Shown here: piece after piece, positions 61,401-64,000 of the stretch
Numbering within the stretch: position 1 is the stretch's first letter
Layout of the letters: the number at the start of each line of letters is the position of its first letter
NCBI RefSeq assembly: GCF_041248615.1
Contig: NZ_CP158426.1
From: Escherichia coli
GTDB taxonomy: Bacteria; Pseudomonadota; Gammaproteobacteria; Enterobacterales; Enterobacteriaceae
Strand: one strand, 5' to 3'
Length of the DNA: 64,000 nt
Program-made: the position numbers

Positions 61401-64000
61401 GAAGTGACAGATCTACTGCGCCGCCGGTTTAATGATGCTGGTGGGGACATTGGCTATCTCGAAAACTGGGGGATCCCTCAGCATCATTCTATGGAAAAGG
61501 TTGGGGCGGTATCAAAGGATAAGTGGGTTAGCGATGTTATAGGTAAGCTGGATCGCAAATATTATATCCGAGCCGATGGACAACTGATGAACGATGCCGA
61601 GTTGTCTGCATTTCTTGGAGAGGCTTATAACACGATCGCTACTGGTGGGCTGAATAAGCTTACTGATACCGGAATGCGAATTTCCGGCGCACGTGCTAAC
61701 CGTGGTAATGCATCACGACAGATACATTTCAAAGATGCAGATTCCTATCTGCAATATCAGCAACTTTATGGCGATCGCTCTCTATGGGAAATCATGGTCG
61801 GTCACCTGGAAGGTATCAGTAAAGATATTGCACTGGTGGAAACATATGGCCCAAACCCCGATCATGTTTTCCGCTCTCTTCTTGATCAGGTGAAGGCAGA
61901 AACGGCAACAGCTAACCCGAGTAAAACCGGTAAAGTCGAGCGGCTGGCGAACAACACAGAGAATCTGTACAACTTTATTTCCGGAAAGACACAGCCTGTA
62001 GCGAATCCGCACATCGCGCGATGGTCTGACAATATCCGCAACTGGCTGGTTGCCAGCAGACTCGGATCTGCGTTGCTATCATCGTTCTCTGATCTTGGAA
62101 CCATGTATCTGTCTGCGAAGGTGACCAACCTTCCAATGAACCAGTTATTCCGCAACCAGCTTGAAGCTATGGACCCAACGAACCGTACAGAACTTGCGCG
62201 GGCGCGCCGCGCTGGTCTGGCGATGGAATCTCTACTTGGCAGCGTTAACCGCTGGGCGATGGATAATATGGGGCCGTCAGTGTCTCGTTGGGCGGCAACG
62301 GCGGTAATGCGTGCCAGTGGGCTTACAGCATGGTCAGATGCGCACAAGCGCGCCTATGGCGTAACCATGATGGGAAGCCTGGGAGAAGTAGTGTCACGGA
62401 CACCAGACCTTCGTAGCCTCGATGATTCTGATTTTCGTATCCTGAAAAGCAAAGGGATTACTGACACAGACTGGAGCGTATGGAAGCTGGCGCAACAGGA
62501 GGACTGGGGGAACGGTAATAATACGATGCTGACACCGGAAAGCATTATGCGTATCCCTGATTCAGCAGTTAAACATCTTGGTGAGCCTGAGCGCGTGAAA
62601 TTTGAGGCAATGCGTAAATTGCTAGGTGCCGTAACTGAAGAAGTTGATATGGCTGTTATTACACCGGGAGCTCGTGAGCAACTGATAACCGGTTCTGGTA
62701 TTCAGCGTGGAACATGGAAAGGTGAATTAACGAGAAGTGTTTTCCTGTTTAAATCTTTCCCTATCTCGGTTGTTATGCGTCACTGGTCACGCGCTATGGG
62801 TATGCCGTCTGCTGGTGGGCGTGCGGCATATATTGCGACGTTTATTGCCAGTACGACCATTCTTGGCGCTTTGTCGCAGCAACTTAACGACCTTGCGTCT
62901 GGTCGTAATCCTCGAGAGATGACAGGAGAAGATGCCGCAAAATTCTGGCTTGGTGCTCTACTGAAAGGTGGTGGTCTTGGCCTTTACGGTGACTTTTTAT
63001 TGTCAGATCACACCAGGTACGGAAGCGGCGCGCTGGCGTCGATGCTTGGCCCGGTAGCTGGTCTGGTTGATGACGTGGTGAAGATTGCTCAGGGCATACC
63101 GTTAAATGCTGTGGAAGGGAAGAGTGAGCAGACTGGTGGTGATCTGGTGAAGCTGGGGAAAGGTTTGATGCCTGGTGCGAATCTCTGGTATTTGAAGGCG
63201 GCTCTCGATCACATGATCTTTAACCAGATGCAGGAGTATTTTTCACCAGGCTATTTGCGTAAAATGGAGCAACGTTCGAAGAAAGAGTTTAACCAGACAT
63301 ACTGGTGGCGACCTCAGGATGTCACTCCGCAATAAGGAAGTGTTGTGTTTTTAATTATTTTGAGTGTAATAATTTCTGGTGGATTGTTATTTATTGACCA
63401 CTACAAATATTTTCTTAACCCTCAGACTCAAGCTATTTGCTGGTTCATCTTTGTTGTGCAGGGAGTAGTTCTTGTTGCAAGCCTTATTGAGGGGAGGCCT
63501 CTTATTTTTACTGGGTAAATAGGTGACTACATGCAAGCTATAGGATTCATTGTTTATATCGTCGTTGGTCTTTTTCAGTTGGCAGCAATTATGGCTGGGC
63601 TTGAATCATGGTGGGGATTGCACTGGATAATTGCAGCCCCCATCGCTTTCATCGTGAGCTATATTCCATTTGTTGGAGCGATTGTTGGTATGGTTGGCGC
63701 TGTGGATGTATGGCGGTGGGAGTGGTGGCAGGCTGGCCTTCTATTCTTTGGTGGGATAATCTTTGCTATTGTCTGCGGTGGAATGTCATCATTTTTCGAA
63801 TGGCTATCATTCAGAAAAGAGACGTGACATGTCACAGGCCGCTTTCGCGGCCTTGTTTTTAACGAATGCCACCGCCGCCCGGGCGGGAATCCGCAGAACG
63901 CCCACCGCAGCGGGAGCCGTCAGCGGCAGTATCGCTGTCGTGCTGACAACGGCCGGCAAAGGCCTGAGTTGAAGCTACCAGAGACAACAAAACGAACAGT

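What the first reader, a model, noticed from the sequence alone, without database searches (positions are those of the whole stretch)
63345..63827. Two small hydrophobic proteins after the last large virion gene, one missing from the ORF track
A 57-aa GTG-initiated ORF (63345-63518) with two predicted TM helices and good RBS spacing precedes a 98-aa three-TM protein. A pair of small membrane proteins at this position could be a holin/antiholin pair, a superinfection-exclusion system or lysogenic-conversion cargo.
Basis: seen in the sequence. Interest (0 to 1): 0.35.

Follow-up and report, generated by a model that had tools for sequence, protein, structure and literature searches.

The report
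Small membrane-protein cassettes ending a prophage virion operon
Two real but uncharacterised small inner-membrane protein genes, one missing from the RefSeq annotation, sit as swappable cargo at the end of the virion operon of an epsilon15/phiV10-like E. coli prophage; they are not the phage's holins, and their function (my best guess is blocking DNA entry by rival phages) is untested.

Summary
Both ORFs exist as described. ORF57 (63345-63518, GTG) is absent from the RefSeq annotation but is a genuine gene. It is intact in about 64 of 80 viral contigs and in six divergent loci from five genera. Its dN/dS is 0.11-0.33, its start position is fixed (GTG/TTG/ATG), and only this frame stays open. 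ORF98 (63531-63827) is PHROG 3075 (function unknown), with dN/dS 0.025. Its three-TM domain is widespread (734 clusters) and has no Pfam or NCBIfam model.

The window is an E. coli chromosome carrying a Uetakevirus prophage. The two genes are the last cistrons of a virion operon that looks repressor-controlled. They follow the IVP-D ejection protein gene and precede a conserved palindrome plus terminator.

They are not an obligate pair. Each occurs without the other, and the shared reading frame seen in the window is incidental. The slot also holds non-homologous small envelope proteins in relatives: phiV10 p21, epsilon15 gp18, a Tyrion gp19 type and a lipoprotein.

A complete lysis cassette lies 5.5 kb downstream of ORF98, so the holin/antiholin reading is not supported.

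The most likely role is accessory envelope cargo that acts like an injection-blocking exclusion protein (about 0.3). This is untested, and I found no promoter that would express it in a lysogen. The finding is ordinary to moderately interesting.

The parts
47252..47266 (+). Repressor-operator-like site (TTACCTGAAAGGTAA), about 100 nt before the first gene of the virion operon (starts 47357)
   Evidence: The pattern TTACC-N5-GGTAA occurs 15 times in the window against 1.1 expected. It matches the sites annotated as repressor-binding in the epsilon15 record, ATTACC-N5-GGTAAT. No further copy lies between 47266 and 64000.
60861..63335 (+). Gene for the 824-aa internal virion (ejection) protein, epsilon15 gp17 / phiV10 gp20 family, the IVP-D analogue of T7 gp16
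   Evidence: It is 28% identical to epsilon15 gp17 over its full length. epsilon15 gp17 is assigned as IVP-D in PMC4819975.
63334..63340 (+). Shine-Dalgarno sequence of ORF57 (AAGGAAG), overlapping the TAA stop of the upstream gene
   Evidence: Read from the sequence. Conserved as TAAGGAGG/TAAGGGGG at the same place in six divergent loci.
63345..63518 (+). ORF57: 57-aa inner-membrane protein predicted to form a two-helix hairpin. Unannotated in the source RefSeq record.
   Evidence: dN/dS is 0.11-0.33. There are 13 protein clusters of 56-58 aa across five genera. The gene always begins about 10 nt after the 824-aa gene.
63521..63526 (+). Shine-Dalgarno sequence of ORF98 (AGGTGA)
   Evidence: Read from the sequence. 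The spacer TAAATAGGTGACTACATG is identical in Klebsiella phage BUCT711.
63531..63827 (+). ORF98: 98-aa three-TM membrane protein, PHROG 3075, with conserved core GxxGA..xWxWxWWQAxLLFFG and a basic C-terminal tail
   Evidence: dN/dS is 0.025. The AF2 model has pLDDT 90.8.
63824..63835 (.). Perfect 12-bp palindrome GTGACATGTCAC overlapping the ORF98 stop codon. It forms the conserved right edge of the cassette slot.
   Evidence: Three copies in the window against 0.16 expected. The same three positions are occupied in epsilon15. It is conserved whatever cassette precedes it.
63836..63860 (+). Intrinsic terminator (AGGCCGC-TTTC-GCGGCCT followed by TGTTTTT) that ends the virion operon
   Evidence: Annotated as a terminator at the equivalent place in phiV10 and epsilon15.
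63859..64000 (-). 3' part of a convergent gene for a 53-aa small secreted protein (WP_000708858.1). It runs off the window and is the first gene of the reverse-strand DUF4760 / BRO-N cluster.

Best explanation
ORF57 and ORF98 are two real, independently mobile genes for small inner-membrane proteins. They occupy a cassette slot at the very end of the virion operon of a Uetakevirus (epsilon15/phiV10-like) prophage. The slot lies between the IVP-D ejection protein gene and a conserved palindrome plus terminator.

Shown:
- They are translated from their own Shine-Dalgarno sequences.
- No detectable promoter of their own lies upstream. The operon carries a repressor-operator-like site at its head, so they should be made with the virion and ejection proteins during lytic growth.
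- They are dispensable accessory genes. Near-identical prophages carry non-homologous small envelope proteins in the same slot.

Inferred: they act at the inner membrane as exclusion-type proteins. By analogy with P22 SieA, which lies next to the ejection protein genes, they would interfere with the DNA-delivery conduit that incoming related podophages build from their ejection proteins. They are not part of the lysis machinery.

The anatomy (real genes, independent cassettes, late-operon position, not holins) I hold at about 0.9. The exclusion function I hold at about 0.3. The confidence given for this entry is that of the whole statement, function included.
For: Real genes:
- ORF57 has dN/dS 0.11-0.33 over six loci, with a fixed start position and only this frame open.
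- ORF57 has 13 clusters of 56-58 aa in Escherichia, Citrobacter, Klebsiella, Salmonella and Enterobacter.
- ORF57 is intact in about 64 of 80 viral loci, and ORF98 in 75 of 80.
- ORF98 has dN/dS 0.025.

Independent cassettes:
- ORF98 occurs without ORF57 behind a 123-aa secreted protein, behind a 113-aa TM protein, or directly after IVP-D.
- ORF57 occurs with a lipoprotein, with a Tyrion-gp19-type protein, or with no called gene in the second slot.
- The spacer is 12 or 13 nt.

Slot with conserved flanks holding non-homologous small envelope proteins.

Patchy distribution: 215 E. coli genomes carry the module, 54 carry the phiV10 p21 cassette, and 565 carry the IVP-D region. ORF57 is 35.6% GC against 50.8% for the operon.

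Position:
- 79 of 80 viral loci have a gp17-family gene ending just upstream of ORF98.
- This holds across IVP-D lineages that are only 24-28% identical to one another.

Operon logic:
- No sigma-70-like site lies within 750 bp upstream.
- A strong terminator follows directly.
- Operator-like sites lie at 44106 and 47252.

Not lysis: a separate complete lysis cassette exists here and in every relative inspected, and the holin hint is noise.

[quoted passage not shown] It blocks DNA injection, and escape mutations map to ejection proteins gp16 and gp20 (PMC10883804).

Distant members of the ORF98 domain family lie in other mobile-element positions, after SSB and in an accessory cluster. This argues against a virion-specific role.
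Against: - There is no experimental evidence for any function. Neither gene, nor phiV10 p21, nor epsilon15 gp18 turned up as characterised in the papers searched.
- There is no sequence or profile similarity to SieA, and no hit in PADLOC.
- P22 sieA is on the opposite strand with its own promoter and is expressed from the prophage. ORF57 and ORF98 are on the late strand with no detectable promoter. Exclusion in a lysogen would need read-through or an atypical promoter.
- ORF98 is far more conserved (52-61% identity) than its IVP-D neighbour (24-28%). Known exclusion proteins diverge fast; SieA types are about 25% identical to each other.
- The ORF98 domain also occurs fused to RDD, DUF805 and MORN domains in diverse bacteria. 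This hints at a more generic membrane role.
Confidence: 0.3

Rival explanations
1. Lysis accessories. One or both proteins would be holin-like, antiholin-like or pore-forming proteins that tune the timing of lysis, made late with the virion proteins.
For: They are small, have 2-3 TM segments, and are predicted to be expressed late. ORF98 has a basic C-terminal tail and conserved small-xxx-small motifs such as GAIVGMVGA, which are typical of oligomerising TM helices. There is a weak Phage_holin_5_2 hit, E = 0.027.
Against: - A full lysis cassette with two holin-family proteins, an endolysin and a protein at the spanin position lies 5.5 kb downstream of ORF98. No endolysin is adjacent.
- ORF98 homologues co-occur with unrelated lysis cassettes: Phage_holin_8 + holin_3_7 + Peptidase_M15_4 in one, Phage_holin_2_1 + lysozyme in another.
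- The holin hit is sub-threshold and is seen in only 4 of 28 members.
- The slot also carries a lipoprotein and secreted proteins.
- Many sister prophages lack both genes.
Confidence: 0.15
2. Partner of the ejection proteins. The small membrane proteins would assist assembly or packaging of the membrane-active internal virion proteins. Alternatively they would be carried in the virion and help form the inner-membrane end of the DNA conduit.
For: ORF57 always starts about 10 nt after the 824-aa IVP-D gene, with its Shine-Dalgarno sequence overlapping that gene's stop codon. ORF98 follows an IVP-D-family gene in 79 of 80 viral loci, and across lineages 24-28% identical. Some small 2-TM protein occupies the first slot in epsilon15, phiV10, SPN1S and Tyrion.
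Against: - The occupants of the slot are non-homologous and are exchanged among phages whose IVP-D genes are more than 98% identical.
- Some slots hold a lipoprotein or a secreted protein.
- Distant ORF98-domain genes lie in early or accessory regions, away from virion genes.
- Proteins this hydrophobic are unlikely capsid cargo. This point is inference.
Confidence: 0.15
3. Lysogenic-conversion or host-fitness cargo. The genes would be expressed in the lysogen and act on the host envelope (stress tolerance, transport, virulence) rather than on other phages.
For: The layout is moron-like: a precise insertion between conserved flanks, a terminator immediately downstream, low GC for ORF57 and patchy distribution. 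The neighbouring cassette types include a lipoprotein with a long upstream spacer of its own.
Against: No promoter-like site lies upstream of either gene. The spacers are 9-12 nt, so there is no room for a promoter. The operon has a repressor-operator-like site at its head.
Confidence: 0.1
4. A single ancestral 160-aa gene split by a nonsense mutation, or joined by stop-codon read-through. In the window the two ORFs share a frame, with only a TAA and four codons between them.
For: 63531 minus 63345 is 186, or 62 codons, so both are in one frame.
Against: The spacer is 13 nt in phiv142-3 and in 7 of 80 viral loci, which puts the ORFs in different frames while both stay intact. The TAA is present in Klebsiella phage BUCT711. 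Each ORF occurs without the other. ORF98 has its own Shine-Dalgarno sequence and ATG.
Confidence: 0.01
5. ORF57 is a chance open frame in an untranslated spacer, not a gene.
For: RefSeq (PGAP) did not call it here. It has a GTG start and is AT-rich. It has no significant match in Pfam, PHROGs, NCBIfam or PADLOC.
Against: It shows purifying selection with a third-position bias. Start-codon switches keep a start at the same position. The length is conserved at 56-58 aa across genera, down to 65% identity. All other frames are closed. A divergent 54-aa homologue is recognisable by profile comparison.
Confidence: 0.02

Closest known systems
P22 SieA (superinfection exclusion A; Leavitt et al. 2024, mBio, PMC10883804)
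   Same: Both are small multi-TM inner-membrane proteins of a temperate podovirus. Both are encoded in the stretch between the last ejection protein gene and the tailspike gene, next to an antirepressor-type cluster. Both are accessory and patchily distributed, and both come in several unrelated sequence types at one position.
   Different: There is no sequence or profile similarity. SieA is 164 aa, lies on the opposite strand and has its own promoter that is active in the lysogen. ORF57 and ORF98 are the last cistrons of the late strand with no detectable promoter. Function is untested here.
phiV10 p21 / SPN1S_0020 (46 aa) and epsilon15 gp18 (64 aa)
   Same: They occupy exactly the same slot, between the IVP-D stop codon and the GTGACATGTCAC palindrome plus terminator. 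All are very hydrophobic two-helix proteins of unknown function.
   Different: They show no detectable homology to ORF57. Those phages have a single gene in the slot and no ORF98.
PHROG 3075 (phage protein family, unknown function)
   Same: ORF98 matches it end to end, E = 1.4e-54.
   Different: The family name carries no functional information. The exhaustive profile search shows a much wider domain family (734 clusters) that includes fusion proteins.
Class I holins such as lambda S105 (three TM, N-out/C-in); from my own knowledge
   Same: They are about 100 aa, have three hydrophobic helices and a basic C-terminal tail, and are expressed late.
   Different: ORF98 is not in or next to a lysis cassette. 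The phage has its own holin genes. It does not belong to any Pfam holin family. Its charged tail is very short.
Morons and injection-blocking membrane proteins such as HK97 gp15 or T4 Imm; from my own knowledge
   Same: These are small membrane proteins inserted among virion genes, with low GC, a terminator downstream and patchy distribution.
   Different: The defining own promoter was not found. There is no match to Imm-type or other defence models in Pfam or PADLOC.

Membership tests
Holin (functional class) | Small protein with at least one TM domain and a hydrophilic, charged C-terminal tail | tested here: inconclusive
   The TM segments are present. ORF98 has only a 5-10-residue basic tail. 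ORF57 has essentially no tail.
Holin (functional class) | Gene lies in a lysis cassette, adjacent to the endolysin gene | tested here: not met
   The nearest endolysin (GH19) lies more than 6 kb downstream, within its own cassette that has two holin-family genes. The same is true of the relatives.
Holin (functional class) | Membership of a curated holin sequence family | tested here: not met
   The only hit is Phage_holin_5_2 at 15.2 bits against a cutoff of 29.2. Just 4 of 28 family members match, alongside unrelated TM families.
Holin (functional class) | Forms lethal membrane lesions that release endolysin at a programmed time | not testable with these tools
   Needs expression and lysis assays.
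SieA-type superinfection exclusion | Sequence homology to SieA types A-C, including the FxRYPxEAxxFNK motif | tested here: not met
   hhalign probability is 0.2%. The motif is absent from both proteins.
SieA-type superinfection exclusion | Gene located between the last ejection protein gene and the tailspike gene of a temperate podovirus | tested here: met
SieA-type superinfection exclusion | Own promoter, expressed from the prophage | tested here: not met
   The consensus scan finds no promoter-like site upstream. The spacers are 9-12 nt. A consensus scan cannot exclude atypical promoters.
SieA-type superinfection exclusion | [quoted passage not shown] | not testable with these tools
   Membrane location is predicted from hydropathy and the AF2 model only.
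Moron (Hendrix-type accessory insertion) | Present or absent between otherwise homologous neighbouring genes | tested here: met
   Cassettes are exchanged precisely between flanks that are 98% identical. Counts are 215 versus 54 of 565 genomes.
Moron (Hendrix-type accessory insertion) | Own promoter and own terminator | tested here: inconclusive
   A terminator is present but is shared with the operon. No promoter was found.
Moron (Hendrix-type accessory insertion) | Base composition differs from the surrounding genes | tested here: met
   ORF57 is 35.6% GC and ORF98 45.8%, against 50.8% for the operon. Part of this reflects codons for hydrophobic residues.
PHROG 3075 | Full-length match to the family profile | tested here: met
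   ORF98 residues 1-98 match profile positions 1-98, E = 1.4e-54.

The most novel reading that the evidence does not exclude
ORF98 would represent a widespread, uncurated three-TM domain family: at least 734 clusters at 50% identity, with no Pfam or NCBIfam model and no structural relative. The family is carried by mobile elements. In epsilon15-like podophages it is locked to the 3' end of the IVP-D ejection gene. It would be a new class of inner-membrane protein that blocks or gates the ejection-protein DNA conduit. ORF57 and the other first-slot hairpins would be specificity or helper subunits. The conserved GTGACATGTCAC-plus-terminator element would mark both the regulatory boundary and the recombination boundary of the cassette slot.
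Probability: 0.2. Interest if true: 0.55.

Novelty: new member of a known kind. Interest (0 to 1): 0.3.

Why it matters
If the exclusion reading is right, these cassettes would be the Uetakevirus counterpart of P22 SieA. They would be a handle on how podovirus ejection proteins cross the inner membrane. They would also matter for phage therapy and typing, because about 4% of complete E. coli genomes carry the module.

Whatever the function, three results are useful.
- ORF57 is a genuine gene that annotation pipelines miss. Its neighbour ORF98 has been mis-extended in at least one phage record.
- ORF98 defines a large domain family that has no curated model.
- The post-IVP-D slot is a clear hotspot for small envelope-protein cargo.

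Tried and rejected
- Single split gene or read-through fusion: rejected by the 12/13-nt spacer variation and by independent occurrence of each ORF.
- Holin-family membership: the sub-threshold hit is noise.
- Homology to SieA: none.
- Defence-system models (PADLOC) and NCBIfam: nothing.
- Solved-structure sequence search: nothing.
- Foldseek against PDB and BFVD with a confident model: nothing below E = 1. The top PDB hits were potassium-channel pore domains at TM-scores of 0.23-0.39, which I treat as not significant, and there is no GYG-type filter motif.
- The afdb50 fold library was unavailable.
- Remote homology between ORF57 and phiV10 p21 or epsilon15 gp18: none.
- Promoter search upstream of either ORF: nothing above the chance level.
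- The terminator-like hairpin inside ORF57 (63488-63504) is weak (3 GC pairs), and the count of such sites in the region is at chance level (3 found, 1.6 expected). I treat it as chance.
- Literature searches for epsilon15 gp18, phiV10 membrane proteins and Uetakevirus superinfection found no characterisation.
- Context look-up for the Dickeya homologue failed. Two distant members sat on contigs too short to be informative.
- I did not attempt an AF2 model of ORF57 linked to ORF98. Concatenated TM helices pack together regardless, and the paired alignment is shallow.
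Full report
**What the window is.** The 3.1 kb around the finding is 100% identical to the E. coli NRZ14408 chromosome (NZ_LT599825.1). It is 98-99% identical to Uetakevirus phages and prophages such as phiv142-3, HEMP4 and phiV10, and the IVP-D region occurs in 565 of 5426 complete E. coli genomes. The record's annotation shows an epsilon15/phiV10-type prophage integrated beside guaA. The gene order is integrase, early genes, terminase, portal, capsid, tail tube, three large internal virion proteins, then the finding. After that come a reverse-strand cluster (53-aa secreted peptide, DUF4760, BRO-N, 85-aa protein), the tailspike and a lysis cassette. The 824-aa gene just upstream (60861-63335) belongs to the epsilon15 gp17 family. 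A published analysis assigns that family as the IVP-D (T7 gp16) analogue (PMC4819975).

ORF57 (63345-63518, GTG) and ORF98 (63531-63827, ATG) exist, and each has a well-spaced Shine-Dalgarno sequence. Both are extremely hydrophobic, with GRAVY 1.33 and 1.21. ORF57 has two hydrophobic segments and ORF98 has three. An AF2 model of ORF98 built on a 28-sequence alignment is confident (pLDDT 90.8). It shows three long helices, the middle one kinked at a conserved Y-I-P. RefSeq annotates ORF98 but not ORF57.

**ORF57 is a gene.**
- A 57-codon ORF is not remarkable here by itself.
- The same frame is intact, with the same length, in Klebsiella phage BUCT711 at 79% nucleotide identity. There dN/dS is 0.19, differences fall 10/7/19 by codon position, and both alternative frames carry stops.
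- The protein database holds 13 clusters of 56-58 aa from Escherichia, Citrobacter, Klebsiella, Salmonella and Enterobacter, down to 65% identity.
- Over six divergent loci, pairwise dN/dS is 0.11-0.33. The start codon is GTG, TTG or ATG at the same position, behind a conserved TAAGGAGG-like site that overlaps the upstream stop. Only this frame is open in all six.
- In 80 IMG/VR loci the ORF is intact at 57 aa in about 64.
- ORF98 is under much stronger constraint: dN/dS 0.025, with differences 6/2/45 by codon position.

**Not one gene, and not an obligate pair.**
- In the window the two ORFs share a frame. In phiv142-3 and in 7 of 80 viral loci the spacer is 13 nt rather than 12 nt. Both ORFs remain intact in different frames.
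- ORF98 occurs without ORF57 in several arrangements. It follows a 123-aa signal-peptide protein in E. coli YZLc1-3. It follows a 113-aa TM protein in two APEC-type prophages, where ORF98 itself is frameshifted. It lies directly after the large gene in Cronobacter and Salmonella prophages.
- ORF57 always starts about 10 nt after the 824-aa gene, but what follows it varies. It can be a 126-128-aa lipoprotein (lipobox LVGC) in Salmonella and Citrobacter, or a 92-aa protein with two TM segments and a charged tail (related to Tyrion gp19) in Enterobacter. In K. oxytoca the second slot has no called gene but does contain an uncalled ORF of the Tyrion type.

**A cassette slot.** Comparison with phiV10 shows that the module replaces phiV10 p21 (46 aa, 2 TM) exactly. 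The replacement lies between the Shine-Dalgarno sequence after the IVP-D stop and the sequence CGTGACATGTCAC plus terminator. epsilon15 has gp18 (64 aa, 2 TM) there, SPN1S has a p21 homologue, and Tyrion has gp19. ORF57 shows no detectable homology to p21 or gp18. A divergent 54-aa ORF57 homologue is paired with ORF98 in one viral contig. Among complete E. coli genomes, 215 carry the ORF57/ORF98 module and 54 carry the p21 cassette. ORF57 is 35.6% GC against 50.8% for the operon.

**Expression logic.**
- No sigma-70-like site lies within 750 bp upstream, and a strong intrinsic terminator follows ORF98 directly.
- The epsilon15 record annotates repressor sites (ATTACC-N5-GGTAAT) in front of each late transcription unit.
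- The window has the same motif 15 times against 1.1 expected. Copies lie at 44106 (before terS) and at 47252 (about 100 nt before the first gene of the virion operon), and none lies after that.
- I infer that ORF57 and ORF98 are the last cistrons of a 16.5-kb virion operon that is silent in the lysogen. This is an inference from motifs, not a measurement.

**Not the lysis system.** The prophage has a 133-aa and a 102-aa holin-family protein, a GH19 endolysin and a DUF2514 protein at the Rz-spanin position, 5.5 kb downstream of ORF98. ORF98 homologues in Yersinia and Salmonella prophages co-occur with different, complete lysis cassettes. The only holin hint, Phage_holin_5_2 at E = 0.027, is below cutoff and is seen in 4 of 28 members among unrelated TM families.

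**What ORF98 is related to.**
- It is PHROG 3075, of unknown function.
- It has no Pfam, NCBIfam, PADLOC or PDB match, and no significant fold match.
- An exhaustive profile search finds 734 clusters at E of 1e-3 or better and 303 at 1e-10 or better. Most are about 100 aa and standalone. Some are fused to RDD, DUF805 or MORN domains. They come from diverse bacteria, including a Lentisphaeria MAG and Sodalis.
- Two distant members that could be placed lie in mobile elements, but not next to virion genes. One follows SSB in an early region. The other sits in an accessory cluster beside a holin/pesticin lysis cassette.
- Within epsilon15-like podophages the positional rule is strict. In 79 of 80 viral loci a gp17-family gene ends just upstream. 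ORF98 homologues (52-61% identical) follow IVP-D genes that are only 24-28% identical to each other.

**Interpretation.** The anatomy is that of accessory envelope-protein cargo at a recombination-prone slot. The closest functional precedent is P22 SieA. [quoted passage not shown] It blocks DNA injection, and its escape mutations lie in the ejection proteins (PMC10883804).

I therefore rank an exclusion-type action on the incoming DNA conduit first, at about 0.3. Four things count against it:
- there is no homology to SieA;
- the genes lie on the late strand;
- no promoter was found;
- ORF98 is unusually well conserved for an arms-race protein.

The rivals are lysis-timing accessory (0.15), ejection-protein partner (0.15) and lysogen-expressed host cargo (0.1). 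The remainder is unassigned. None of these can be settled without experiments.

**Novelty.** The genes are uncharacterised members of a familiar kind, small phage membrane proteins of the moron type. The modest points of interest are a consistently missed gene, an uncurated and widespread three-TM domain, and a conserved palindrome-terminator element that bounds the slot.

Noticed in passing
window 44016-44027, 46281-46292, 63824-63835; epsilon15 (L110) 2142, 19517, 39612: The perfect 12-bp palindrome GTGACATGTCAC occurs three times in the window (0.16 expected). Each copy lies at the 3' end of a transcription unit, overlapping or following a stop codon and adjacent to a GC-rich terminator hairpin. 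epsilon15 has exactly three copies at the equivalent positions: before terS, after terL, and after gp18. The element is distinct from the annotated repressor operator and is not annotated in the epsilon15 record. It could be a regulator-binding site acting at terminators, or a boundary for cassette recombination. The gene whose stop codon the first copy overlaps is the homologue of epsilon15 gp49, which is annotated as a transcriptional regulator.
   Followed up: partly
window 36894, 37606, 39937, 39999, 44106, 47252 and others: The motif TTACC-N5-GGTAA (the epsilon15 repressor-operator type) is found 15 times against 1.1 expected. Copies flank the HTH repressor gene and precede terS and the virion operon. 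This suggests direct repressor control of the late units.
   Followed up: partly
window 63859-64000 (minus strand, runs off the end); L001 14999-17289: The reverse-strand cluster just after the terminator holds four genes: a 53-aa signal-peptide protein with two cysteines (WP_000708858.1, named 'transmembrane anchored protein' in some records), a DUF4760 protein with an N-terminal TM segment, a BRO-N antirepressor-like protein and an 85-aa protein. Its layout is analogous to the P22 sieA/immI region. It is the more likely place for prophage-expressed functions.
   Followed up: no
L003 (phiv142-3) 10612-10968; L009 (YDC107_2): GenBank Orf12 of phiv142-3 is ORF98 with a spurious 20-residue N-terminal extension from a TTG start, and it overlaps the unannotated ORF57 in another frame. 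The YDC107_2 record has frameshifts that split the gp17-like gene and ORF57, which probably reflects assembly quality.
   Followed up: partly
L021 5418-5804, L023 5279-5659: In Salmonella Muenchen and Citrobacter freundii prophages the second slot holds a 126-128-aa lipoprotein (lipobox LVGC). It is preceded by a 100-240-nt spacer, so it may have its own promoter. It is a candidate outer-envelope exclusion or conversion factor.
   Followed up: no
L024 5270-5548: An uncalled 92-aa ORF in a K. oxytoca prophage has two TM segments and a charged tail (LWLKRRKLEEEKRIRELQDK). It is of the same type as Tyrion gp19 and the Enterobacter 92-aa protein, and represents a third cassette family for the slot.
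   Followed up: partly
window 44060-44100: The annotated TTG start of the terminase small subunit gene (44060) lies upstream of a terminator-like hairpin (GCCGCCAACTATGGCGGC followed by TTTATTTT) and of the operator at 44106. The true start is probably further downstream.
   Followed up: no
L005 (E. coli UID2404240036), L007 and L008 (APEC strains): ORF98 is frameshifted or truncated in a few genomes: by an 11-bp deletion in L005, and by indels in the two prophages where it follows the 113-aa TM protein. The gene is therefore dispensable for prophage carriage.
   Followed up: partly
window about 46853-46929 (minus strand): A tRNA-Arg gene is annotated inside the prophage, between the terminase genes and the virion operon, next to a Gp49-family gene.
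   Followed up: no
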